Positions 17,426-29,471 are shown, counted from the stretch's first letter. The stretch is DNA of 57,567 nucleotides from Anaerolineales bacterium (GCA_046259355.1 JBJYWH010000134.1:1-57567); one strand, 5' to 3'. Numbers and translations: made by a program. The notes: generated by a model from the sequence alone, not told the origin.

Positions 17426-18197
17426 ACTGCTCCTGGCCGCAACCGCGATGGTGCTGATCGGTGGCCTCTATGTCGGCGTGGTGATGGCGATAGGGACACC
17501 CACTGCAAGCGGGTTGATCGGTCACAGCCTGGGCGTGGTGGGTTTCATCCTGATGCTGGCTACCGAGACACTCTATTCGCTGCGCAAGCGATCGACCCGT
17601 GCGCGCTGGGGACGCATGAGCAGCTGGATGCAGTTTCATATTTTTACCGGGATCGTTGGCCCGTACCTCGTCCTGCTCCACACCGCGTGGCGTTTCCAGG
17701 GCCTGGCGGGAATCGTCACGTTGCTGACCTTGATTGTCGTGCTGAGCGGATTTGTGGGACGCTACATTTACACTGCAGTGCCACGCACAGCGGACGGCGT
17801 CATGGTGGAAGTCGATCAACTGCAAGCAGAGTTGGATCGGCTCGAAATCGATCTCAGGAATCAATTCGCATCCGAGAATATCCTGCTGAATGATTTGACC
17901 TCCCGGGTTGAGAGTGGGAGCAAAGCTGTCCTTGGCCGAGCCTTATTCGCGAGGGGCGAACGGCGACGCTGGCGAGCACTGCTCAACAAGATCGGCGTTC
18001 CGCCGGGCGAGACGGAACGAATCCTCTCGCTGCTTTCCCGCCGCAGCGACCTGGCAAGGCAGGTACGATCGACTCAGACTGCACGGCGTCTGCTGGCGGT
18101 ATGGCACAGTGTTCATATTCCGATCGGGATGGCGCTGTTTGCAGCCGCGTTTGTGCACATTGGCGCCGCCCTTTACTACGCCACATTACAACCTTGA
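17409..18197 (+). CDS. polytopic membrane protein with conserved intramembrane His (possible b-type haem/electron-transfer subunit)
   Basis: GTG at 17409, 7 nt after GGAAGGAG, overlapping the previous gene by 17 nt. Helices carry GHSLGVVGF, MQFHIFTG..LLHTAW and WHSVHIPIG..FVHIG. Confidence 0.55.
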   Translation: MRSSRELLLAATAMVLIGGLYVGVVMAIGTPTASGLIGHSLGVVGFILMLATETLYSLRKRSTRARWGRMSSWMQFHIFTGIVGPYLVLLHTAWRFQGLAGIVTLLTLIVVLSGFVGRYIYTAVPRTADGVMVEVDQLQAELDRLEIDLRNQFASENILLNDLTSRVESGSKAVLGRALFARGERRRWRALLNKIGVPPGETERILSLLSRRSDLARQVRSTQTARRLLAVWHSVHIPIGMALFAAAFVHIGAALYYATLQP

Positions 18198-18205
18198 GAG
18201 ACGGG

Positions 18206-19642
18206 ATGATGCGCAGGAAACCGCTGGGTTGCCTCACAAGTATCGGGTTGCTCGCAAGCGTAATCACGCTGGCTTTGGTCGCCGTGTCCGCGGCTGCCAC
18301 CGGGAATGGAATCTTCAGCCCCGGCGAACTAAACGCGCAGAGCATGGGTATGAACTTCGGAGGCGTTGTGAGCCACGTGGAGCTCGAAGACGAATGTTCT
18401 GCCTGTCATCCTGCGTTCTGGAGCGGGACGAGCATGCGTGATCGCTGCCTGGAGTGCCATCAATCCGTAGCTGTTGAGCTGGAAACATCAGGCAGCCTGC
18501 ACGGGTCCTTCGACGTTTCGCTTACCTGCCAGGACTGTCACCACGAGCATCGCGGCCCCAATGCCGCACTGACGGATTTCACAAATGTTGAATTTCCGCA
18601 CGAGACGGTCGGGTTTTCGCTGCAGGAGCACCACGGGCCGCTGGGTCAGAAAAGGTTTACGTGCCATGCCTGCCATACGCTGAGCGTGCGGGTGTTCGAC
18701 ACATCAACCTGCCGCGCATGTCATCTTTCCCGTGATATGGCCGCTCACGACAAGGCATTTGGCCTCCGTTGCTTGAATTGCCATGACGGGGTGGATCGCT
18801 TTGAGCGGGGCGCTTTCAATCACCAGCGGGCCTCCTTTCCGCTGGAAGGAGCTCACCATCTGCTGGCATGCGCTGAGTGCCACCAGGATGCCAATTCCAT
18901 TGCTGTGCTCCAATCCACGCCGCAAGGCTGTGCAGCCTGTCACGCGGATCGGGATGCACATGCTGGCCGCCTGGGCAATCGCTGCGAGGATTGTCATGCC
19001 CCGACCACCTGGGATCATGCCACGATTGACCACGACCTCACGCGCTATCCCCTGGTCGGCGCACATCTGCAGGTCGATTGCGAAGCGTGCCACGTTGACC
19101 GGGCCTGGACCGGCCTGCCGTTGAACTGCGCGGGATGTCACGTCAGCGATGATGCGCACGAAGGACGCTACGGCGACCAGTGCGAGGCCTGTCACCAGCC
19201 GACGGCCTGGCAGGATGCGACCTTTGATCACGATCTTTCGCGCTTTCCGCTGACGGGTGCCCATACCCTATTGGCCTGCGAGAGCTGCCACGCCAGTGGA
19301 TCGTTTGGTGGGCTTTCCGCCGCCTGCGTGTCTTGCCATGCAGACCCCACGTATCACCGCGGCCTGTTCGGATACTCCTGCGCGTCGTGCCACAACACAT
19401 GGGCCTGGCGGCCGACGCCCTACAACGGACCGCACAGTTTCCCCTACAACCATGGTGGGGCGGACGGCACCTGCTCGACCTGCCACCCCAGCGCGCTCAC
19501 GGGTTATACCTGCTACAGCTGTCACGAACACAACCAGGGCGAAATCGCCAACAAACACCGTGAGGAGGGGATCGGCAACCTGAACAACTGTGTTCGCTGT
19601 CATCCTTCGGGACGCGAGGCAGAGGGCGGAGAGGAGGACTGA
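18206..19642 (+). CDS. multihaem c-type cytochrome (18 CxxCH), secreted or anchored
   Basis: Start MMRRKPLGCLTSIGLLASVITLALVAV (signal or anchor). I count 18 CxxCH motifs, with repeated units FxHxxxxFPLxGxHxxxxCxxCH (doubled-CXXCH / c7-like). Confidence 0.9.
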   Translation: MMRRKPLGCLTSIGLLASVITLALVAVSAAATGNGIFSPGELNAQSMGMNFGGVVSHVELEDECSACHPAFWSGTSMRDRCLECHQSVAVELETSGSLHGSFDVSLTCQDCHHEHRGPNAALTDFTNVEFPHETVGFSLQEHHGPLGQKRFTCHACHTLSVRVFDTSTCRACHLSRDMAAHDKAFGLRCLNCHDGVDRFERGAFNHQRASFPLEGAHHLLACAECHQDANSIAVLQSTPQGCAACHADRDAHAGRLGNRCEDCHAPTTWDHATIDHDLTRYPLVGAHLQVDCEACHVDRAWTGLPLNCAGCHVSDDAHEGRYGDQCEACHQPTAWQDATFDHDLSRFPLTGAHTLLACESCHASGSFGGLSAACVSCHADPTYHRGLFGYSCASCHNTWAWRPTPYNGPHSFPYNHGGADGTCSTCHPSALTGYTCYSCHEHNQGEIANKHREEGIGNLNNCVRCHPSGREAEGGEED

Positions 19643-20094
19643 TCGCGTCCCTGCTCGCGGGCAAGCAGCAGCGGCCCAAGCACCTCGCCCAATACCATCA
19701 AGCCCAGCGCAGCGAACGGTGTACAGAACCAGGCCAGGCCGAGGGCAATCATCCAACGCTGCAGGGTGCCCTCGGGCCTGAAGATCACCGCGCCCGCCAG
19801 CAGATAAAGCCACAGCGTCAGGGCGGGCAGGGTGGCCAGCGCCGTCAGCAGGAAGCGCGCGCCGCGCGCTGTCTCCTTCCTGCTGGACGAATGCCCCGCC
19901 CTGCGCCAAACCCACACTGACCACACCAACAGGGCATAAGCCAGCGTGAGGAACGATCCGGTGACCAGCAAGCCCGGATCCGGCCGCCACCCTGCCAGGA
20001 TTCCATCGGCATCGAAGTAGCCGGCAATCGCGAGCACATTCGCAACCAGGCTCACCATACCGCTGAACAACAGGAACGCGTTATAACGTCTCAT
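19600..20094 (-). CDS. hypothetical membrane protein, last gene of the PolB cassette
   Basis: 164 aa with about four TM helices. The ATG is 22 nt after the polB stop and has GGTGGAGAAAG upstream. The 3' end overlaps the convergent cytochrome gene by 43 nt. Confidence 0.5.
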   Translation of the reverse strand: MRRYNAFLLFSGMVSLVANVLAIAGYFDADGILAGWRPDPGLLVTGSFLTLAYALLVWSVWVWRRAGHSSSRKETARGARFLLTALATLPALTLWLYLLAGAVIFRPEGTLQRWMIALGLAWFCTPFAALGLMVLGEVLGPLLLAREQGRDQSSSPPSASRPEG

Positions 20095-20116
20095 CTTTCT
20101 CCACCTGTGCAGTGTT

Positions 20117-22486
20117 CTAGGCTGCCAGCAGCAGCTTGTTGTCTGCCGACGGCTGGCGATCCTTGTAGATGGCCGAGGCCGGTCGAATGCCCGTCCAGCT
20201 CTTCACGCGACCCGCCAGCAGCGGCACTCCGGGATCCACCCCCGGGGGCGGCAGCACACCGGGTGGACCCCAGTAGCCGGCGTTCGCCAGCAGCCAGGTC
20301 TCGAGCATGTTCCGGTTGACGCCGATCGGCGACACGATGCTCTCGATCGCCCGCAGCAGCAGCTCGCGGTACGCGGCGCGGTCGTAGTGCACATCGCCCT
20401 CGATCAGCTCCCAGGCCAGTGCCTTTTCCGGGCCGGGCACGAACAGGAAGTTCAGCCGCTCGCCGGGGTGGAGCTCGACCCCGGTCCCTGCCAGCTGCTG
20501 GGCGACGCGCGCGGCCGCGGTGCGCACGGTGTATTCCTCCGGCTTGCGGGACAGGCGGTGGGCGACGACCAATTCGGCGGGATTGACCTGGCCGGTGCAC
20601 AGCGCCGCCAGCCGCTGGCGGGCGTAGTCCAGCGCTTCCGGCAGTGCGGCGCGAAAGCCGGCCGCATCCTCGCCGGTCGCCAGGATCTCCAGCATCTCCA
20701 GTTGGGTCTGCTTGATGAAGCGCGGCGTATCGTGGCGGCGCGCTTCGATGCCGCGCACCTTCAGCGTGCGGTCCTCGTACGCGCCGAAGTAGCGGTTGGC
20801 GACCGCCACGCGCGGCTCGCTGCGCGAGGGCAGGAAGGCCAGCCAGCGGTAGACCCCCTCCAGCCCGATGTGCAGCCCGGTGCGATTGTGAATCTGCTCC
20901 AGCAGCGCCTCGTAATCCGGGCGCTGGCGCGCGCCGGGTTTGTAGATCCACAGCCCATCGACATACAGGTGCAGCACGCGAAAGCCCTGTGCTTCGACCA
21001 GCTCCTTGGTCTGCAGCAGGATCTCCCGGCCGTAGGCATTCACGGCCTCGTGCGCCTCGATGCGCCCGAAGCGGGCGTTCTTGTAGCCCAGGTAACCGAA
21101 GCAGGTCACCAGCAGCCACTTGTGGGCCGAGTAGCGCCGGCGGAACGGCTCCCGGCGCGGGTCGTGCGGCTCCATGGCGCGTATCAATTCCTTGTAGCGG
21201 CGGCGCTTTTCGAGCAGCGGCGCCAGCGTTTCCGGCACCAGCCCCAGGCGGTGGCGGCAGACCGGAGTGCCCAGCTCGGGGATCGGCTCGCCTTCGCAGC
21301 AGCGCGCCCCGACAGTCTCGGGCGAGATATTGAAGTGCACCATGATGCTGGGGTACATGGCGCTGAAGTCGAGCTCGGCGACGTGTTCGTGCAGGCCGGC
21401 GATCGGCGTGTAGACCAGCCCGCCCTTGTCTGCCGTGAGCAGGTCGAGTCCGCTCTTCAGGTCCTCTGGCTGGCGCTTCTGCCATGGCACCAGCACGTCG
21501 CGGCGCAGCGCGGTCGCGACCTGCATGGCGCTGATGCCGGTGCCGGTTGAAACGCGGGCGACGGTCTGCGGCGGCAGCCCGGAGAGGCGGGCGATCTCGA
21601 GAATGCCGTCGATGCCGTAATCATTCGCTAGGAATGCGTTCTGGCGGTCGAGGTGCCAGCGCCCGAAGAGCAGGTGCTGCTCATTGCGGAAGACCACCCG
21701 ACCGTAGGAGAAGTAGGAGGAGGCCGATTTGCGCTGCACGGCATACCCCGGGTCGCGGTTGAGCGGCAGCGGGATGCCGTAGTGCTCCGCCAGCTGGATC
21801 AGGCGCGGCAGGATGTAGTTGTCGCCGTAGGTCGAGACGATTACATCCGGGTCGTACGCCTCGAGCAGATGGCGCATGCCCAGCACCAGCTGCCGGCTGC
21901 GGCGGCGGGGGAAGCGCAGCGTCTCGCCCTCGATCTCGACCAGCAGGTCGGCCCGGTGGCCGCGGCCAGGGTCGCGCATGTCGCCGGCCAGGCGCAGCGC
22001 CATCGTGCGCAGCGGCGGCAGCGCGTAGTCGATCTCCCAGGGCGAATCGAGCGAGCGGATCTCACGCACCTGTTCCCCGTCGACCTCCAGCGCGCAGTAC
22101 GCCAACGGGAAGACTCCGCGCGTCAGCACGTAGCGCTGGGCGAGCGAGATATCGGCGTTGTAGTAGGTCAAGTCGGGAAAGGCATCGGCTGTTCGGCGGA
22201 AGAGGGCCGGCAGCTGCCCAGGCTGAGGTACGCCCACCTCGAGCACCTCCACCGGGCGGTCGAGGAACAGATCGCGGTGCTCGCCGCTCGCCAGCGTCAC
22301 CGGCGTACGCCCCCGGCGCAGCCACTGGCAGAGCGCGTGCAGTTCCGGGCGCGGGCCGCGGGCATAGAACGTGGCCGTGAACGAATCGCGCAGCTTGTGG
22401 CTGCGGCCCTGCGCGTCGAGCACCCAGACCGTCATGCCCTGGCCGTCCGGGTAGGTGTCGAACAGCCAGCCGAAGAGGGTGGTCAT
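20117..22486 (-). CDS. family-B DNA polymerase, archaeal-like, exonuclease motifs degenerate
   Basis: 789 aa. Motif A is LDFSAMYPSIMVHFNISPET. The motif B region is KWLLVTCFGYLGY. Motif C is GFRVLHLYVDGLWIYKPG (compare Pfu GFKVLYIDTDGLYATIPG). The ExoI position reads LRTMALRLAG and ExoII reads DPDVIVSTYGDNYILPRL. Confidence 0.85.
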   Translation of the reverse strand: MTTLFGWLFDTYPDGQGMTVWVLDAQGRSHKLRDSFTATFYARGPRPELHALCQWLRRGRTPVTLASGEHRDLFLDRPVEVLEVGVPQPGQLPALFRRTADAFPDLTYYNADISLAQRYVLTRGVFPLAYCALEVDGEQVREIRSLDSPWEIDYALPPLRTMALRLAGDMRDPGRGHRADLLVEIEGETLRFPRRRSRQLVLGMRHLLEAYDPDVIVSTYGDNYILPRLIQLAEHYGIPLPLNRDPGYAVQRKSASSYFSYGRVVFRNEQHLLFGRWHLDRQNAFLANDYGIDGILEIARLSGLPPQTVARVSTGTGISAMQVATALRRDVLVPWQKRQPEDLKSGLDLLTADKGGLVYTPIAGLHEHVAELDFSAMYPSIMVHFNISPETVGARCCEGEPIPELGTPVCRHRLGLVPETLAPLLEKRRRYKELIRAMEPHDPRREPFRRRYSAHKWLLVTCFGYLGYKNARFGRIEAHEAVNAYGREILLQTKELVEAQGFRVLHLYVDGLWIYKPGARQRPDYEALLEQIHNRTGLHIGLEGVYRWLAFLPSRSEPRVAVANRYFGAYEDRTLKVRGIEARRHDTPRFIKQTQLEMLEILATGEDAAGFRAALPEALDYARQRLAALCTGQVNPAELVVAHRLSRKPEEYTVRTAAARVAQQLAGTGVELHPGERLNFLFVPGPEKALAWELIEGDVHYDRAAYRELLLRAIESIVSPIGVNRNMLETWLLANAGYWGPPGVLPPPGVDPGVPLLAGRVKSWTGIRPASAIYKDRQPSADNKLLLAA

Positions 22487-22815
22487 GCGTCCCCGGCCTC
22501 ATGAGCCGTCCGGTTCGCAGGCGTGTCGGGCGGCAGCGCCGGCTGCTCGGTTTTGCCCTGCCCGGAACGCAGCACCTCGACCTCCTGCTGCAGCAGCAGG
22601 ACCTGTTTGTGCTCCTCGACCAGCATGGCGAGCAGCATGACCTCGAATGGCAGCAGGTGGGAGGCGTAGGCGGCCGCCGCCAGGTGACGGCGGGAGGCGC
22701 CCAGCAGGTCATCGAGCGCGCGCTGGTCTTCACGGCGCAGCGCCCGGCGGAAGCGAGCCAGCGATTGCTGCTCGTGTAAAAAAGCCTGTGTAATCGATGG
22801 CAGTGTGCGTCCCAT
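22483..22815 (-). CDS. small helical protein of unknown function, translationally coupled to polB
   Basis: 110 aa with strong GC3 bias. SD GAGGT. The stop overlaps the polB ATG (ATGA). No family recognised. Confidence 0.6.
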   Translation of the reverse strand: MGRTLPSITQAFLHEQQSLARFRRALRREDQRALDDLLGASRRHLAAAAYASHLLPFEVMLLAMLVEEHKQVLLLQQEVEVLRSGQGKTEQPALPPDTPANRTAHEAGDA

Positions 22816-22953
22816 GCATACCTCGCAGTGTGTGAGATGGAATCGATTGATCCGCTGTCGTCGGCGGGCGGGACACGGAAGCCGGGTGGAGGGAAGGGCG
22901 GCGGCCGCTCGTAGATTGCCCGGCTTCCGGTCCCATGCGCCGGGAGGGCGGCG

Positions 22954-23568
22954 TCAGTTGAACAAGCGCAGTTGCTCGCGGGATGTGTCCTCGGGCGCCC
23001 GCAGCAGCCAGGCGGCGTCGGCCGCGACCTGCAGTTGATCGAGCAGCGACCAGCGCTCCTTGACCAACACGCGCGGCTCGCGCGCGCCGACAATCACCGG
23101 CCCGCTCGACGCCAGGCGTTTCAGGTGGGCGATGGTCTTTGTCAGCAGGTGCTCGGATTCGCGCAGCGGGACGCTCTCGTCGTAAAAGGTGGTGAGCAGA
23201 TCGAGCACAAAGAGCACCTCGCCCGAAGAATGCAGGGCGGCGGGCGCGTTTTCAATCAGCTGCGCCAGCTGGAAGCAGGTGAAGGCGCGCGAGAGCTGCA
23301 CGCGTTCCAGCACGGCGTGTGGATTCGGGCTCAGGCGGCGCGCCAGGCGGGCGATGAAATACCCATCGAAGCGGTTGCCGCCGTCGAAGACGCGCACCTG
23401 CTGGCCGCGCGCTGCGATCAGCGTCAGAGCCGCCAGCAGCGACCGGGTGGGCGTCTCGGCGCCCCAGAAGAGCGACAGGCGCGGTTGCAGCAGCATCTCC
23501 AGCGTGGATGGATCGTCCAGAACCCGCGGCAGCGGCGGCAGTTCGGTGGAAACGAGCGTTGATGACAT
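22954..23568 (-). CDS. RecA-superfamily-fold protein with degenerate P-loop (ImuA/SulA-like, inferred)
   Basis: ATG at 23568, 5 nt after GGAGGT. It shows strand-loop-helix LSLFWGAETPTRSLLAALTLIAA where GxxxxGK[ST] would sit, a Walker-B-like VLFVLDLLTTFYDE, and LSRAFTCFQL. Confidence 0.5.
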   Translation of the reverse strand: MSSTLVSTELPPLPRVLDDPSTLEMLLQPRLSLFWGAETPTRSLLAALTLIAARGQQVRVFDGGNRFDGYFIARLARRLSPNPHAVLERVQLSRAFTCFQLAQLIENAPAALHSSGEVLFVLDLLTTFYDESVPLRESEHLLTKTIAHLKRLASSGPVIVGAREPRVLVKERWSLLDQLQVAADAAWLLRAPEDTSREQLRLFN

Positions 23569-23598
23569 CACATACCTCCGGGAGCGGTGAGGCGCCCA

Positions 23599-23626
23599 AT
23601 AGTAGAACAAATGTGCTAACAGTCTA
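23599..23626 (-). promoter_or_regulatory. promoter-like element with LexA (Cheo-type) box upstream of the PolB cassette
   Basis: Box GAACAAATGTGC at 23605..23616 (11/12 to GAAC-N4-GTTC), flanked on the minus strand by TAGACT (-35-like) and TACTAT (-10-like) with a 16-nt spacer. It shares the 12-mer TAGAACAAATGT with the box at 29371..29382. Confidence 0.6.
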
Positions 23627-23666
23627 TCTCTGGACGATTGCGCCGCAATCCCGTGGGGGGTGGAAC

Positions 23667-23698
23667 CGCGCGGGTGATTCGCGAATCACCCGCGCGGG
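23667..23698 (-). terminator. 32-bp perfect GC-rich palindrome downstream of the plsC-like gene
   Basis: CCGCGCGGGTGATTCG/CGAATCACCCGCGCGG, 16+16 nt with no mismatches, 33 nt after the stop at 23732. No U tract on either strand. Confidence 0.35.
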
Positions 23699-23731
23699 GG
23701 AGCGAGAAAGAACCGATTTGGAATGATGGGC

Positions 23732-24400
23732 TCAGGAACTGGAACGGGCGAGCAGTTCCTGCAGGCGGGGATGATCAGCGTAGTAGCCGCGGTACCGGGG
23801 AGGAAGCATGACGGCGATGCGGCACATCACTTCGTCGGCGTTGGCTCGCAGGCTGGCGTTGCGATCCGTTTCATCGAGCGGGGGCAGCCGGAAGGATTTT
23901 CCAACCCACATGGTGAACTTCGGACGGCGCAGCCGACGCCAACAGGCGATTGTGTTTTCGGTGCCGGCGACGGCAATGGGCACGATCGGGACATCGACCT
24001 CGCTGGCCAGGTAGGCGACGCCTGTCTTGGCGCGCGCCATGGCGCCGGTCTTGCTGCGTGTCCCCTCGGGCGCAATGCCGAACATGTTGCCGCGCTGGAT
24101 CCAGGCCACGGCCGCCTCGATTGCGTGCCGGTCAACCTGGCCGCGTTCGATGAAGATGGCATTGCCCATGCGCAGGATGAGCCCGAAAAGCGGGTGGCGG
24201 GCGTACTTTTCAGCCGCCCAGCCGGTGACGTTCTCGCCGCCGACCAGTCCGAAGACGAGCGGCAGGTCGAAGATGCTGAGGTGGTTGATGGCCAGAATGC
24301 ACGGTCCCTGTGCAGGAAAATTCTCGAGCCCCTGGACCTCACGGCGGGCGAGGAGTGAGGCCAGAAAATTGAAGCTCCAGCGCAAGAAGCGTGAAAACAT
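23732..24400 (-). CDS. 1-acyl-sn-glycerol-3-phosphate acyltransferase family (PlsC-like)
   Basis: ATG at 24400 after GGAGAGG. Motifs NHLSIFD (HX4D), FIERG and APEGTRS. Only the C-terminal 222 codons of the 617-aa track ORF are coding. Confidence 0.85.
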   Translation of the reverse strand: MFSRFLRWSFNFLASLLARREVQGLENFPAQGPCILAINHLSIFDLPLVFGLVGGENVTGWAAEKYARHPLFGLILRMGNAIFIERGQVDRHAIEAAVAWIQRGNMFGIAPEGTRSKTGAMARAKTGVAYLASEVDVPIVPIAVAGTENTIACWRRLRRPKFTMWVGKSFRLPPLDETDRNASLRANADEVMCRIAVMLPPRYRGYYADHPRLQELLARSSS

Positions 24401-27241: not shown

Positions 27242-27814
27242 CTAACGTAAGATTTCGGTCGCGGTACGCACGCCGAACCCGAACAGCCCGATGACGGCCG
27301 TGGCGATCAAGCTCAGGATGACGTAGACGATGAAGCCGATGACGACCGTGACAAGGGTCTGAACCCATTCCAGATCGAGCGCTTCCTTGGCCGCGATCAA
27401 CCAGGCCGCGAGCGAGAGCAGCGCAGCCACGACCCGCACCGGGGCCGTGATGCAGTTCAGGGCCGGGGAGAACGCGGCGAAAATTCCAAGCACCGCCACA
27501 GCCTGCCAGACGTATGCCAGGCCCAGCGTGCGGACCAATTCGTCAAAGGTCACCTCGGCCTTGAAGACTTCCCGCCCGACCAGGGCGATAATGTATGCGC
27601 CGAGGGCGAAGCCGATCACGGCGAATACGGTGCCGATCAGCGCGGCGATGATAATCCGGAACAAGCCGGTCGCATGCACCGTGCCGAGCTGGTTCAGGAA
27701 GGCGACGACCGCGATCAGGACCCAGGCGGTCGAGGTGAAGCTGGCGTCGTCCTCGACTTCCTTGTAGACATCGCTGCGGAATGTGAAAGCGCCCATGATT
27801 CGATTCATCAACAT
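27242..27814 (-). CDS. Yip1-domain membrane protein
   Basis: ATG at 27814 after AAGGAG. N-terminus MLMNRIMGAFTFRSDVYKEVEDDASFTSTAW followed by five hydrophobic helices, a Yip1/DUF1282-like layout. Confidence 0.6.
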   Translation of the reverse strand: MLMNRIMGAFTFRSDVYKEVEDDASFTSTAWVLIAVVAFLNQLGTVHATGLFRIIIAALIGTVFAVIGFALGAYIIALVGREVFKAEVTFDELVRTLGLAYVWQAVAVLGIFAAFSPALNCITAPVRVVAALLSLAAWLIAAKEALDLEWVQTLVTVVIGFIVYVILSLIATAVIGLFGFGVRTATEILR

Positions 27815-27934
27815 TGTGATATCGCTCCTTCTTCTGGTGTTTGAGCACCATGCCTGAAAGAATTGGGATCGTGCAGCGAACCAGGGGGTATAACCCCCCG
27901 TCACGGACCGGGTTGCGCAGGCTGCGGCCAGGAT

Positions 27935-28759
27935 TCAAGGGGCGAGGGCTGCTGATCCAGTGGAGCGAGACAACCATTTCTGGGCGAAGTCGACCGCGGC
28001 TGGCTGCGAGAACAGGCGGCTCTCGGCGGAACCGACCCGGCCCATTTTAACGGGATGCTGCTCTTCGAACTCCGCTCCGATCTGTGCAAAAGGCGTTTCG
28101 TCGAGATCGACGTCCCGGTAGGTGACCCAGGTTCGCGTGCCGTTCCGCATGACCGGTGCACCCTGGGCGATGTCCCGCCGGCGTCCAATGCGGTACTCCG
28201 CCAGGTGGAAGGAGGTGTTATTGCCGTAGCCGACGCCGAGCAGCAGCACGTATCCCTGCAGATCGTAAATACGTGCCAGCGGCGAACCTTCGCCGAGCGG
28301 ATCCTCGAGCTGATGGCCGCGCGTGATCTCCTGCGCCCGCGCCCCCCAGGCGCTGAAGGAGAGCGCCGGGTGATCGCTGCGCAGCACGTCTGGCCAGGTG
28401 CGGAAGTGTTCGGGAATGCGGCCCATGCCGCGCGTAGGCGTGAGGCGTGGATCGTAAGCCGGCATGGTTTCCCGCACGGGATCCACCCAATCGGTCGGGA
28501 CGGGCGGATTTTTCCAGAGGGCAGGCTCGGAAAGATCGCCGGAGTGAGCTGGCATGACCAGCGTGCCCGCGGGTGTGAGCACATCCTGCAAGGCCTGAAT
28601 CACGGCCACCGAACCGCCATTGACCCACCCGAGCGCAGAGAGCGAGCTGTGCACGAGAACAATCATGCCCGGCTCGAGTCCCAGGCGGTGCAGGTCCGCC
28701 GCAAGGCTCTGGCGGGTGCGCGGTTCCGGTGTGGCGGCGATCAGATCCGATTCGGCCAT
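27935..28759 (-). CDS. aminoglycoside N3-acetyltransferase (AAC(3)/Antibiotic_NAT) family protein
   Basis: ATG at 28759 after GGAGGGA. Motifs LHRLGLEPGMIVLVHSSLSALGWVNGG, GTLVMPAHS and NTSFHLAEYR. The 458-aa track ORF is an artefactual 5' extension. Confidence 0.8.
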   Translation of the reverse strand: MAESDLIAATPEPRTRQSLAADLHRLGLEPGMIVLVHSSLSALGWVNGGSVAVIQALQDVLTPAGTLVMPAHSGDLSEPALWKNPPVPTDWVDPVRETMPAYDPRLTPTRGMGRIPEHFRTWPDVLRSDHPALSFSAWGARAQEITRGHQLEDPLGEGSPLARIYDLQGYVLLLGVGYGNNTSFHLAEYRIGRRRDIAQGAPVMRNGTRTWVTYRDVDLDETPFAQIGAEFEEQHPVKMGRVGSAESRLFSQPAAVDFAQKWLSRSTGSAALAP

Positions 28760-28833: not shown

Positions 28834-29313
28834 TCAACCAGCCTCCTGCCGCCACCAACGCAGGCCGAGATCGAGCAGCAGCATGCGCAGGTCGGACTTG
28901 CTGTGCAGGCCGAATTTGCTCAGCACGCTGCGCACGTGCGACTTGACGGTTTCGGGTGAGATGACCAGCTTTTCGGCGATCTCCTGGTTGGTGCGGCCGC
29001 GTGCCGCCAACCAGGTGATCTCGCGTTCGCGCGGTGTGAGCGACGCCAGCACCGCTTCCGCATGCCGGCGCAGTGCCTCGCGCTCGAGTGCGCTTGAGAG
29101 CAGTTCCTGCGCCAGGGCCTGCGGGGACCGGTTGCGGACGCGGGCCGCACGGCGCAGAAGAAGTGCCAGCTGCCCCTCCAGCTCGACGGTCAGGCCGGGA
29201 TGGCTGGAATCGGGCGCCAGCCGGCGCAGACGCGCCAGCCATCCCACCCGGCCGGGTGATGACGTGGAAGGTCGTTCGGTGCTGGCGGAGTTCAACCGGC
29301 GAAAAAACCACAC
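28834..29313 (-). CDS. LuxR/GerE-family HTH transcriptional regulator
   Basis: C-terminal LTPREREITWLAARGRTNQEIAEKLVISPETVKSHVRSVLSKFG. The start is uncertain; I favour the GTG at 29313, 6 nt after GGGAG and downstream of the predicted TSS. Confidence 0.7.
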   Translation of the reverse strand: MWFFRRLNSASTERPSTSSPGRVGWLARLRRLAPDSSHPGLTVELEGQLALLLRRAARVRNRSPQALAQELLSSALEREALRRHAEAVLASLTPREREITWLAARGRTNQEIAEKLVISPETVKSHVRSVLSKFGLHSKSDLRMLLLDLGLRWWRQEAG

Positions 29314-29364: not shown

Positions 29365-29393
29365 ATTATATAGAACAAATGTTCGTATGTCAA
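29365..29393 (-). promoter_or_regulatory. consensus sigma-70 promoter with an embedded perfect LexA (Cheo) box
   Basis: Minus strand reads TTGACA (29393..29388), then the 17-nt spacer TACGAACATTTGTTCTA, then TATAAT (29370..29365). The spacer contains the perfect palindrome GAACAAATGTTC (29373..29384). Confidence 0.75.
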
Positions 29394-29471
29394 TCGATGG
29401 ACAGGCGTCATAGACCTGTGCTGGCTTCCCTGATAGACTCGGCCGGTAGCGATCGATCAATGGGAGGGTGA

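What the first reader, a model, noticed from the sequence alone, without database searches (positions are those of the whole stretch)
19600..23626. LexA-box-fronted cassette: RecA-fold (ImuA/SulA-like) protein, small helical ORF, proofreading-degenerate family-B polymerase, membrane protein
Seen in the sequence: four minus-strand genes are packed as one apparent transcription unit.
- 22954..23568, followed by a 138-nt structured spacer.
- 22483..22815, which overlaps the next gene by ATGA.
- 20117..22486, followed by a 22-nt gap with a GGTGGAG SD.
- 19600..20094.

Directly upstream sits GAACAAATGTGC (23605..23616) inside a promoter-like TAGACT-N16-TACTAT.

Established knowledge: GAAC-N4-GTTC is the Cheo-type LexA operator of Firmicutes and has also been reported for Dehalococcoides (Chloroflexota). 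The classic LexA-controlled mutagenesis cassette is imuA-imuB-dnaE2, in which ImuA is a RecA/SulA-fold protein without a functional P-loop.

Inference: the polymerase slot is filled here by an archaeal-like PolB that has lost its exonuclease acidic residues. There is no Y-family ImuB; an unrelated 110-aa helical protein is translationally coupled to the polymerase instead. I do not know of a described ImuA-like + PolB SOS cassette, but I cannot search the literature or databases here.
Basis: partly seen in the sequence, partly recalled or inferred. Interest (0 to 1): 0.88.

Follow-up and report, generated by a model that had tools for sequence, protein, structure and literature searches.

The report
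Bacterial PolB2 mutasome operon, SOS-box fronted
This is a Chloroflexota copy of an already described three-gene cassette (inactive RadA, small helical partner, proofreading-dead family-B polymerase) thought to copy past DNA damage, so it is a known system and not a new one, with a few undescribed regulatory and accessory extras.

Summary

The cassette is not new. It is the bacterial "PolB2 mutasome" operon, iRadA-PPB2-PolB2. It was first noted by Makarova and Koonin (PMC4104785) and named and modelled by Timinskas et al. 2025 (PMC11791011), whose tables already list Anaerolineales operons of this type.

Every sequence-level hallmark is met:
- PPB2 starts with MGRT.
- The 204-aa protein models as a Rad51/RadA core, not RecA, ImuA or SulA. 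It lacks GK[ST] and ends in a beta-clamp motif, QLRLF.
- The polymerase has YVD in place of DxD and has lost the Exo I and Exo II acidic residues.

The trio is syntenic in 80 genome loci. A TAGAAC-N4-GTTCTA box lies upstream of iRadA in 62 of 77 loci, which supports SOS control.

Features I did not find described or discussed:
- A small 4-TM protein family found only directly downstream of PolB2.
- A conserved C-rich element upstream of the box.
- A linked GerE/NarL-type regulator gene with its own consensus promoter and box.
- A hairpin between iRadA and PPB2.

Verdict: a known system; moderate-to-low interest.

The parts
23645..23702 (-). Conserved C-rich upstream element (ctCCCCCGCGCGGGTGAT-tcgcga-ATCACCCGCGCGGTTCCACC-ccccac-GGGATTGC). 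It may be an array of regulator binding sites and includes the -35 region. Its function is unknown.
   Evidence: Present at fixed spacing from the box in about 60 of 63 loci. Of 136 matches to CC[AC]CC-N3-9-GGGAT in 1.08 Mb, 66 lie on the operon strand within 400 nt upstream of iRadA. It stays with the operon where other genes separate plsC from iRadA. No Rfam match.
23621..23626 (-). TAGACT hexamer. It is a candidate -10, paired with -35 TTGCGG at 23643..23648 and a 16-nt spacer.
   Evidence: A TAnnnT-like hexamer sits 2-3 nt upstream of the box in nearly all orthologous loci. The consensus scan calls no promoter here. Not resolved.
23603..23618 (.). SOS (LexA, Cheo-type) box. It reads TAGCACATTTGTTCTA on the operon strand, one mismatch from TAGAAC-N4-GTTCTA.
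   Evidence: Conserved upstream of iRadA in 62 of 77 loci. The TAGCAC variant is shared by the closest relatives.
22954..23568 (-). iRadA: catalytically inactive Rad51/RadA homologue, 204 aa, ATPase core only, with a C-terminal beta-clamp motif (EQLRLFN).
   Evidence: Pfam Rad51, E = 3e-5. RadA in PDB by sequence. AF2 model pLDDT 84; all 50 listed Foldseek matches are RadA/Rad51 family. The P-loop position reads GAETPTRS. 37% identity, E = 4e-25, to the paper's Longilinea iRadA. C-termini read Q[LP]xLF across loci.
22816..22953 (-). Intercistronic spacer with a long stable hairpin between iRadA and PPB2.
   Evidence: -62.2 kcal/mol, z = -3.9. Hairpins are predicted in relatives with long spacers, often with unrelated sequence. 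Weak covariation: 5 of 10 consensus pairs show compensatory changes. The spacer length varies from -1 to 268 nt across the family, median 38.
22483..22815 (-). PPB2 (arCOG07300; 'Partner of PolB2'): small helical subunit with the conserved MGRT N-terminal arm. It overlaps PolB2 by ATGA.
   Evidence: MGRTLPSIT is invariant in 79 loci. 64% identity, E = 1e-28, to the paper's Longilinea PPB2. 3465 homologues, all carrying precomputed PF26485. The model is all-helical over residues 4-89.
20117..22486 (-). PolB2: family-B DNA polymerase with a decayed exonuclease domain and YVD in place of the DxD catalytic motif.
   Evidence: Pfam DNA_pol_B; NCBIfam NF004416 and NF004418, E about 1e-118. Best PDB match is Pyrococcus PolB, aligned well only over residues 297-728, with the Exo I and Exo II acidic residues replaced. 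HLYVDGLWI is identical to 16 entries in the paper's table. YVD in 66 of 69 loci. WHLDR, the D(K/R) motif, is at 277-281.
19600..20094 (-). Lineage-restricted 4-TM membrane protein (164 aa), the fourth gene of the operon, lying 22 nt after PolB2 and preceded by GGTGGAG.
   Evidence: No Pfam, NCBIfam, PADLOC or PHROG family. Only 26 representative clusters among 1.84 billion proteins. Found directly downstream of PolB2 in 17 of 59 genome loci, sometimes overlapping by ATGA. Also directly downstream in all 20 metagenome loci that have upstream sequence. Conserved W95, W122 and P126-F127.
29365..29394 (-). Second SOS box (29371..29386, ACGAACATTTGTTCTA on the minus strand). It fills the 17-nt spacer of a consensus promoter, TTGACA-N17-TATAAT.
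   Evidence: The same TTGACA-box-TATAAT architecture precedes the orthologous GerE gene in every locus examined.
28834..29313 (-). Small GerE/NarL-type HTH regulator (about 159 aa; start codon uncertain), linked to the operon.
   Evidence: Pfam GerE, E = 3.5e-17. Best NCBIfam match is the NarL DNA-binding domain, E = 1e-11. Found 3.3-7 kb upstream on the same strand in about 24 loci; as the first gene of the operon (box-gerE-iRadA-PPB2-PolB2) in 7 divergent loci; and divergently adjacent in 2 loci. GerE is listed seventh in the paper's Supplementary Table S1 and I found no mention of it in the main-text sections I read.

Best explanation
The cassette is a bacterial PolB2 mutasome operon, in an Anaerolineales bacterium (Chloroflexota).

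Components, from homology to the published family:
- PolB2 is the catalytic subunit. It has no proofreading and a non-canonical YVD active-site motif.
- iRadA is an ATPase-dead Rad51/RadA core.
- PPB2 is a small helical protein.

Mechanism, inferred from published AlphaFold models and not tested here:
- One PolB2, one iRadA and a PPB2 trimer assemble into a heteropentamer.
- The MGRT arm of one PPB2 inserts between PolB2 and iRadA, near the DNA.
- The QLRLF tail of iRadA tethers the complex to the beta sliding clamp.

Function, inferred from Sulfolobus Dpo2 genetics and biochemistry: the complex extends mismatched or lesion-distorted primer termini, giving damage tolerance and targeted mutagenesis.

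Regulation, inferred from a conserved operator: transcription is held off by a repressor, most likely LexA, bound to the TAGCAC-N4-GTTCTA box at the promoter or start site, and is released after DNA damage.

The downstream 4-TM protein is a clade-specific accessory of unknown role that is co-expressed with the complex.
For: Literature:
- The operon type, gene order, motifs and lexA association are described in PMC11791011, PMC4104785 and PMC12926913.

Direct homology to the paper's members:
- PPB2: 64% identity.
- iRadA: E = 4e-25.
- PolB2 N-terminal half: 56% identity.
- Motif-C string identical to 16 table entries.

Hallmarks:
- MGRT arm.
- YVD and loss of the exonuclease residues.
- DR motif.
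- iRadA has a Rad51/RadA fold, no N-terminal domain and no GK[ST].
- Q[LP]xLF C-termini.

Context:
- The trio is syntenic in 80 genome loci.
- The SOS box is conserved upstream in 62 of 77 loci.
- GAACN4GTTC is the B. subtilis LexA operator (PMC4234289).
- Dpo2 is damage-inducible and acts in translesion synthesis in Sulfolobus (abstracts of PMC7390963 and PMC8764526).
Against: - No bacterial PolB2 complex has been studied experimentally, so function is extrapolated from Sulfolobus and from AlphaFold models.
- No lexA gene lies in the window or in the ±8 kb flanks of the 80 loci. This rests on a tblastn search with a B. subtilis LexA sequence written from memory.
- I could not check that the same box precedes recA or lexA in these genomes.
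- The window's box carries one mismatch (GCAC for GAAC).
- The promoter position is ambiguous.
- Complex formation could not be modelled here. The PPB2 monomer model has pTM 0.36.
- The role of the membrane protein is unknown.
Confidence: 0.85

Rival explanations
1. A new variant of the imuA-imuB-dnaE2 SOS mutagenesis cassette, in which an ImuA/SulA-like protein pairs with a family-B polymerase and ImuB is replaced by an unrelated helical protein.
For: The logic is shared: a RecA-superfamily protein without a P-loop, an error-prone polymerase and an SOS box.
Against: - The 204-aa protein is Rad51/RadA-like by sequence and fold, not RecA- or ImuA-like.
- No Y-family or C-family polymerase is in the operon.
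- All three proteins are homologous to the archaeal-derived iRadA, PPB2 and PolB2 set.
- The published phylogeny derives the whole operon from a single archaea-to-bacteria transfer.
Confidence: 0.03
2. PolB2 is catalytically dead, and the complex has a non-polymerase role, such as regulating replication or sensing stalled forks. This was the original view of the PolB2 group.
For: The first catalytic Asp of motif C is lost (YVD) and the exonuclease site is gone. Makarova et al. 2014 proposed inactivation.
Against: - The CSBJ paper summarises evidence that Sulfolobus Dpo2, with IID at the same position, is an active polymerase required for targeted mutagenesis (PMC7390963 and PMC8764526).
- Motif A (DFSAMYPS), the motif B lysine and the second Asp are conserved across 66-69 loci.
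Confidence: 0.08
3. The 16-bp box is not a LexA operator. It would instead be a 7-2-7 palindrome bound by the linked GerE/NarL-type regulator, which would then autoregulate and control the mutasome independently of LexA.
For: - The box reads as TAGAACA-NN-TGTTCTA.
- In 1 Mb of loci, the perfect boxes (0 mismatches to the 16-mer) occur only in front of the gerE gene and the mutasome operon.
- No lexA gene was found nearby.
- GerE is common in Anaerolineae PolB2 neighbourhoods.
Against: - The core is exactly the Gram-positive-type LexA consensus GAAC-N4-GTTC. From memory, this motif has also been reported for Dehalococcoides LexA.
- In other phyla lexA itself sits in the PolB2 operon.
- The box overlaps the core promoter, as repressor sites do.
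- LuxR/NarL-type proteins more often act from upstream sites, which fits the C-rich element better.
Confidence: 0.12
4. The cassette belongs to a mobile element, a prophage replication module or an anti-phage defence system, rather than to chromosomal DNA repair.
For: - iRadA and PPB2 hit PHROG families of unknown function.
- The operon's GC content (65-68.5%) is somewhat above that of its immediate flanks (59-61%).
- The published scenario involves horizontal transfer from archaea.
Against: - No PADLOC defence match.
- I saw no integrase among the neighbours scanned, and no tRNA gene is in the window.
- The chromosomal neighbourhood (plsC, GNAT and others) is conserved across dozens of Anaerolineales genomes.
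- The polymerase lacks features of protein-primed or replicative PolBs.
Confidence: 0.03

Closest known systems
PolB2 mutasome operon (iRadA-PPB2-PolB2), bacterial group '1a' of Timinskas, Timinskas and Venclovas 2025; archaeal prototype Sulfolobus islandicus Dpo2 with arCOG07300 and the inactive RadA
   Same: Same three protein families and the same bacterial gene order. Also shared are the MGRT arm, the YVD motif, the dead exonuclease, the D(K/R) motif, the beta-clamp motif on the iRadA C-terminus and the link to the SOS system.
   Different: - No lexA gene next to the operon; an operator is present instead.
- An extra translationally linked 4-TM gene.
- A conserved C-rich upstream element.
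- A linked GerE-type regulator that the paper only tabulates.
- A long hairpin between iRadA and PPB2.
E. coli Pol V mutasome (UmuD'2C-RecA-ATP)
   Same: Both are SOS-controlled multisubunit translesion polymerases with a RecA/Rad51-family subunit, a small subunit whose N-terminal arm reaches the active site, and clamp binding. Membrane sequestration of UmuC (PMC4552617) is a possible analogy for the 4-TM gene.
   Different: Pol V uses a Y-family catalytic subunit, active RecA borrowed from the cell, and activation by UmuD cleavage. The components are not homologous, apart from the distant RecA/Rad51 relationship.
ImuA-ImuB-DnaE2 (ImuC) mutagenesis cassette
   Same: Both are LexA-regulated operons that pair a RecA-superfamily accessory protein with an error-prone polymerase.
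   Different: That cassette has a C-family polymerase and an inactive Y-family ImuB, and ImuA is RecA-like rather than Rad51/RadA-like. None of its defining components is present here.
E. coli Pol II (polB)
   Same: A family-B, LexA-regulated 'extender' polymerase with a beta-clamp motif.
   Different: Pol II is a single subunit with an active DEDDy exonuclease and an intact DxD motif. It is only a distant match (E about 1e-9).
Eukaryotic Pol zeta (Rev3-Rev7-Pol31-Pol32)
   Same: A multisubunit, exonuclease-dead family-B extender polymerase used in translesion synthesis. The analogy is drawn in PMC11791011.
   Different: The accessory subunits are unrelated, and it is eukaryotic.

Membership tests
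PolB2 mutasome operon | Catalytic subunit is a family-B polymerase of the PolB2 group with an inactivated or decayed 3'-5' exonuclease | tested here: met
   DNA_pol_B; NF004416 and NF004418, E about 1e-118. Only residues 297-728 align well to Pyrococcus PolB. Exo I FDIET corresponds to LRLAG by my reading of the unaligned region, and Exo II NFDF is replaced by NYIL in the alignment. No phylogenetic tree was built here.
PolB2 mutasome operon | First Asp of the motif C DxD is replaced, while motif A and the second Asp are kept | tested here: met
   HLYVDGLWI (YVD) at 506-514 and DFSAMYPS at 373. YVD in 66 of 69 loci. The string is identical to 16 entries in the paper's table.
PolB2 mutasome operon | Conserved D(K/R) loop motif in PolB2, preceded by an iRadA-binding beta-alpha segment | tested here: met
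   WHLDR at 277-281; DR in 53 loci. The preceding SYFSYG (257-262) is also present in the bacterial and archaeal PolB2 sequences shown in the paper's tables. Its binding role was not tested.
PolB2 mutasome operon | PPB2: small (about 90 aa) alpha-helical protein with a conserved N-terminal MGRT arm | tested here: met
   MGRTLPSIT. Helical over residues 4-89. 64% identity to the paper's PPB2.
PolB2 mutasome operon | iRadA: Rad51/RadA ATPase core without the N-terminal helical domain and without ATPase active-site residues | tested here: met
   204 aa. pLDDT 84. All 50 listed Foldseek matches are RadA, Rad51 or DMC1 family cores. GAETPTRS occupies the GxxxxGK[ST] position.
PolB2 mutasome operon | Bacterial gene order iRadA-PPB2-PolB2 in one orientation | tested here: met
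   The order is the same in all 80 genome loci and in the metagenome loci where the contig allows.
PolB2 mutasome operon | Beta-clamp binding motif at the C-terminus of iRadA or of PolB2, rarely both | tested here: met
   iRadA ends in EQLRLFN, and orthologues end in Q[LP]xLF. PolB2 ends in ...NKLLLAA, with no clear motif. This is a sequence-level test only.
PolB2 mutasome operon | Forms a PolB2:iRadA:PPB2(3) heteropentamer | not testable with these tools
   Only single-chain prediction is available. It needs AlphaFold-Multimer or AlphaFold3, or co-purification.
PolB2 mutasome operon | Induced by DNA damage | not testable with these tools
   Only indirect evidence: a conserved SOS box.
LexA (SOS) regulon, Cheo-type operator | GAAC-N4-GTTC palindrome overlapping the promoter | tested here: met
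   There is one mismatch in the window. Orthologues carry perfect or one-mismatch boxes in 62 of 77 loci.
LexA (SOS) regulon, Cheo-type operator | The cognate LexA binds the site, and the same motif precedes recA or lexA in the genome | not testable with these tools
   No lexA or recA locus from these genomes is available. tblastn found no LexA in the window or the loci.
imuA-imuB-dnaE2 cassette | Contains an inactive Y-family ImuB and a C-family DnaE2 | tested here: not met
   Neither family is in the operon.
imuA-imuB-dnaE2 cassette | The accessory protein is ImuA (RecA-like) | tested here: not met
   The best sequence and fold matches are Rad51, RadA and DMC1. No RecA, ImuA or SulA appears among the 50 listed matches.
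E. coli-type Pol II | Single-subunit PolB with an active DEDDy exonuclease and an intact DxD | tested here: not met
   Exonuclease residues lost, YVD in place of DxD, and only a weak match to Pol II models.

The most novel reading that the evidence does not exclude
In Anaerolineales the PolB2 mutasome may be under two-tier control and may have a dedicated membrane partner.

- LexA would repress a strong consensus promoter driving a small GerE/NarL-type regulator.
- That regulator would then act on the conserved C-rich inverted-heptamer element next to the weak -35 of the mutasome promoter.
- The mutasome promoter is itself box-occluded, so the two controls form a feed-forward AND-gate that delays mutagenic synthesis.
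- The operon-specific 4-TM protein would control the complex in space, by analogy with membrane sequestration of UmuC, or would act as an SOS growth or division brake.
Probability: 0.2. Interest if true: 0.55.

Novelty: already known. Interest (0 to 1): 0.28.

Why it matters
The core finding re-discovers a published system, so its main value is correct annotation. Source annotations call these genes 'hypothetical protein' or 'DNA polymerase-2'; they can instead be named iRadA, PPB2 and PolB2.

No bacterial PolB2 mutasome has been tested experimentally. This survey adds concrete handles for such work:
- A conserved operator, which makes SOS control directly testable.
- A candidate second regulator and its candidate binding array.
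- A membrane protein found only next to PolB2.

If these extras prove functional, they would show how bacteria domesticated an archaeal mutagenic polymerase and placed it under layered damage control, in parallel with Pol V.

Tried and rejected
- ImuA/SulA reading: rejected by Pfam, NCBIfam, PDB sequence and fold searches.
- Defence system or mobile element: no PADLOC system, no tRNA gene, conserved chromosomal synteny.
- Structured RNA family in the spacer or leader: no Rfam match in 19300..24000.
- C-rich element as terminator of the upstream plsC-like gene: rejected, because the element stays with the operon where other genes intervene. RNA structure versus protein sites could not be separated, because the stems are invariant in sequence.
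- lexA near the operon: none found by tblastn, using a B. subtilis LexA written from memory as probe.
- PPB2 in PDB by sequence: nothing. The monomer model is too extended (pTM 0.36) for a meaningful fold search, so none was run.
- Metagenome scan with the 15-sequence membrane-protein alignment failed because no stretch was conserved enough. It was repeated with 6 closer sequences.
- The Dehalococcoides LexA-box paper could not be found in the library, so that statement rests on memory.
- First regex for motif C was mis-registered and was corrected.
- Coordinates given to one upstream DNA alignment were imprecise, so it was not used.


Full report
**Observation**

The four minus-strand ORFs are exactly as described: 22954..23568 (204 aa), 22483..22815 (110 aa), 20117..22486 (789 aa) and 19600..20094 (164 aa).

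- The 110-aa gene overlaps the polymerase gene by ATGA.
- The polymerase gene is followed by a 22-nt gap containing GGTGGAG.
- The 138-nt spacer after the first gene folds into a long hairpin of -62.2 kcal/mol, z = -3.9, and 0 of 200 shuffles fold as well.
- The box is at 23603..23618, reading TAGAACAAATGTGCTA on the plus strand. That is one mismatch from TAGAAC-N4-GTTCTA.
- The 57.6-kb window holds three matches at up to two mismatches, against 0.30 expected.

**What the proteins are**

*Polymerase (789 aa)*
- It matches Pfam DNA_pol_B and the NCBIfam 'type B DNA polymerase' models NF004416 and NF004418 at E about 1e-118. It matches E. coli Pol II models only weakly.
- In the PDB its best relatives are euryarchaeal PolBs (E = 1e-53). 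Only residues 297-728 align well.
- In that alignment motif A is intact (LDFSAMYPS) and the motif B lysine is present.
- Motif C reads HLYVDGL where Pyrococcus has YIDTDGL, so the first catalytic Asp is a Tyr.
- The Exo II segment reads GDNYILP where the native enzyme has GDNFDFP. The Exo I position appears to be MALRLAG in place of FDIET; this is my reading of an unaligned region.

*First gene (204 aa)*
- It passes the Pfam Rad51 threshold (E = 3e-5) and weakly matches Pyrococcus RadA core constructs.
- An AlphaFold2 model built on 43 homologues has pLDDT 84 and pTM 0.81.
- All 50 listed (top) Foldseek matches in the PDB are RadA, Rad51, DMC1 or Rad51 paralogues.
- The protein covers only the ATPase core.
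- It has GAETPTRS where a Walker A GxxxxGK[ST] should be.
- It ends in EQLRLFN.

*Second gene (110 aa)*
- It has no hit in the local Pfam copy. It has 3465 homologues, and all of those listed carry the precomputed family PF26485.
- Its first 75 residues are nearly invariant and begin MGRTLPSIT.

**It is a named system**

A literature search led to Timinskas, Timinskas and Venclovas 2025 (PMC11791011). That paper describes the 'PolB2 mutasome':
- PolB2, an archaeal-derived family-B polymerase with a dead exonuclease and usually a substituted first Asp of DxD.
- iRadA, a Rad51/RadA homologue lacking the N-terminal domain and the ATPase residues.
- PPB2, a small helical protein formerly called arCOG07300. 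Its conserved N-terminal 'MGRT' arm is modelled to insert between PolB2 and iRadA.

According to the paper, bacteria have only the gene order iRadA-PPB2-PolB2. A beta-clamp motif (QLxLF-like) usually sits on the C-terminus of iRadA. lexA is enriched in bacterial neighbourhoods.

The association, including lexA in the same operon in Leptospirillum, was already reported by Makarova, Krupovic and Koonin 2014 (PMC4104785). It is restated in a 2026 survey of bacterial polymerases (PMC12926913).

The paper's supplementary tables list many Chloroflexota and Anaerolineales operons of group '1a'. These have motif 'YVD' and iRadA tails such as QPRLF. Sixteen entries carry exactly the window's string HLYVDGLWI.

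Direct comparison with sequences taken from those tables:
- PPB2: 64% identity, E = 1e-28.
- iRadA: 37% identity, E = 4e-25.
- PolB2 N-terminal half: 56% identity, E = 5e-147.

All sequence-level defining features are therefore met. Complex formation and damage induction could not be tested here.

**Relatives and synteny**

- The closest homologues come from Anaerolineales MAGs.
- A scan of one genome per species with the PPB2 alignment confirmed 270 stretches encoding a PPB2 relative. I kept 80 loci, almost all Anaerolineales or Chloroflexota.
- In every locus where the contig allows, iRadA, PPB2 and PolB2 are adjacent in that order.
- Across these loci, motif C is YVD in 66 of 69, the loop motif is DR in 53, and PPB2 starts (M/V)GRTLPSIT in 79 of 79.
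- The iRadA P-loop position is A[HE]TPTR-like, and most iRadA C-termini read Q[LP]xLF.

**Regulation**

- A TAGAAC-N4-GTTCTA box (up to 2 mismatches in 12 specified bases) lies within 300 nt upstream of iRadA in 62 of 77 loci.
- 63 of the 105 matches in 1.0 Mb fall in that 2.3% of the sequence.
- The window's variant, TAGCAC...GTTCTA, is shared by its closest relatives.
- The core equals the B. subtilis LexA operator GAACN4GTTC (PMC4234289). That the same motif serves Dehalococcoides LexA is my recollection; I could not find the paper in the library.
- Orthologues conserve a TAnnnT hexamer just upstream of the box (TAGACT here) and a GGGAT(T/G)G segment 16-18 nt further up (TTGCGG here). The box may therefore lie at the transcription start rather than in the spacer.
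- Either placement is compatible with repression. Neither is proven, and the consensus scan calls no promoter.

**Things beyond the published description**

*(1) The fourth gene*
- It encodes a 4-TM protein with no known family.
- It has only 26 representative clusters among 1.84 billion proteins.
- In genome loci it, or a shorter relative, lies directly after PolB2 in 17 of 59 cases, sometimes overlapping by ATGA.
- A metagenome scan seeded with the membrane protein itself gave 22 loci. All 20 that have upstream sequence have PolB2 immediately upstream.
- It is thus a dedicated, clade-restricted accessory. Its role is unknown.
- Two speculative ideas are membrane sequestration, as shown for E. 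coli UmuC (PMC4552617), and an SOS growth or division brake.

*(2) A C-rich element*
- An element of about 58 nt (23645..23702) precedes the box at fixed spacing in about 60 of 63 loci. It contains inverted CCCCC/GGGGGAT-like heptamers.
- It stays with the operon where genes are inserted between it and the usual upstream neighbour, so it is not that gene's terminator.

*(3) A second box and a linked regulator*
- A second box at 29371..29386 fills the 17-nt spacer of a perfect TTGACA/TATAAT promoter.
- That promoter drives a small GerE/NarL-type HTH gene, about 28834..29313.
- The same promoter-box-gene unit lies 3.3-7 kb upstream in about two dozen loci.
- In seven divergent loci it is the first gene of the operon (box-gerE-iRadA-PPB2-PolB2). 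In two loci it is divergently adjacent.
- GerE appears seventh in the paper's neighbourhood table, and I found no mention of it in the main-text sections I read.
- From memory, NarL-type proteins bind C-rich heptamers in 7-2-7 arrangement. That makes the C-rich element a plausible target, but this is inference only.
- The converse rival is that the GerE protein, not LexA, binds the 16-mer box. It cannot be excluded here.

*(4) Hairpins in the iRadA-PPB2 spacer*
- Stable hairpins recur in the spacer in relatives, often with unrelated sequence. The spacer length ranges from -1 to 268 nt.

**Rivals considered**

- An imuABC variant is rejected on homology.
- A defence system or mobile element is unsupported.
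- Catalytic inactivity of PolB2 is unlikely given the Sulfolobus Dpo2 work, but it is untested for any bacterial enzyme.

**Verdict**

The cassette is an ordinary member of the already described bacterial PolB2 mutasome operon family.

The residual interest lies in three things: the conserved operator, the GerE-type regulator with its candidate binding array, and the PolB2-specific membrane protein. I did not find any of these analysed in the papers I read.

Noticed in passing
window 29365..29394 and 28834..29313 (minus strand): A second SOS box (ACGAACATTTGTTCTA) fills the spacer of a perfect TTGACA-N17-TATAAT promoter in front of a small GerE/NarL-type HTH gene. The same unit is linked to the PolB2 operon in three arrangements across loci: 3-7 kb upstream, first gene of the operon, or divergent neighbour.
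   Followed up: partly
window 23645..23702 (minus strand); same position in about 60 loci, e.g. L010, L014, L051: A conserved C-rich element with inverted CCCCC/GGGGGAT-like heptamers sits at fixed distance upstream of the SOS box of the operon. It is absent from the gerE promoters. It could be regulator binding sites or a structured leader.
   Followed up: partly
window 22816..22953; spacers of L003, L007, L009, L014-L017, L024, L031, L076, L079: The iRadA-PPB2 spacer carries a long stable hairpin (z = -3.9). Relatives with long spacers also have strong hairpins, often with unrelated sequence. The closest relatives share a CCGCCCTTCCCTC loop that resembles an anti-Shine-Dalgarno sequence. This may tune subunit stoichiometry or mRNA stability.
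   Followed up: partly
window 23603..23618 and orthologous boxes: The left arm of the box is TAGCAC rather than TAGAAC in the window and in roughly 25 related loci. The asymmetry is conserved, which suggests a second constraint (promoter or start-site overlap, or tuned repressor affinity).
   Followed up: no
window 22954..23568 and 22483..22815: iRadA and PPB2 match PHROG families of unknown function: phrog_16666 (E = 1e-10) and phrog_26583 (E = 2e-8, full length). Some viral or proviral records therefore carry homologues.
   Followed up: no
window 19000..24000 versus flanks: The operon is 65-68.5% GC, against 59-61% in the adjacent 12-19 kb and 24-26 kb stretches. Other parts of the window also reach 65%.
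   Followed up: no
L004, L008, L013, L040: Contigs binned as Burkholderiales, Planctomycetota, Eisenbacteria and Bathyarchaeota carry PPB2 that is 71-91% identical to the Anaerolineales protein, with the same operon. These are probably mis-binned Chloroflexota contigs rather than recent transfers.
   Followed up: no
PPB2 homologues P0241-P0360: All carry the precomputed Pfam accession PF26485. The local Pfam-A library gave no such hit for the window protein, so a Pfam family for PPB2 seems to exist that the local copy lacks.
   Followed up: no
window 19600..19642: The 3' end of the membrane gene overlaps, convergently and by 43 nt, the 3' end of a 513-aa multihaem cytochrome c gene (18101..19642, plus strand). 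The cytochrome is in the same convergent position in L003 and L011.
   Followed up: no
window 27935..28750 and 27242..27904 (minus strand): An aminoglycoside 3-N-acetyltransferase-family gene (Pfam Antibiotic_NAT, E = 1.5e-94) and a 220-aa membrane protein follow the box-fronted gerE gene on the same strand. They are syntenic in many loci, so they might be SOS-controlled as well.
   Followed up: no
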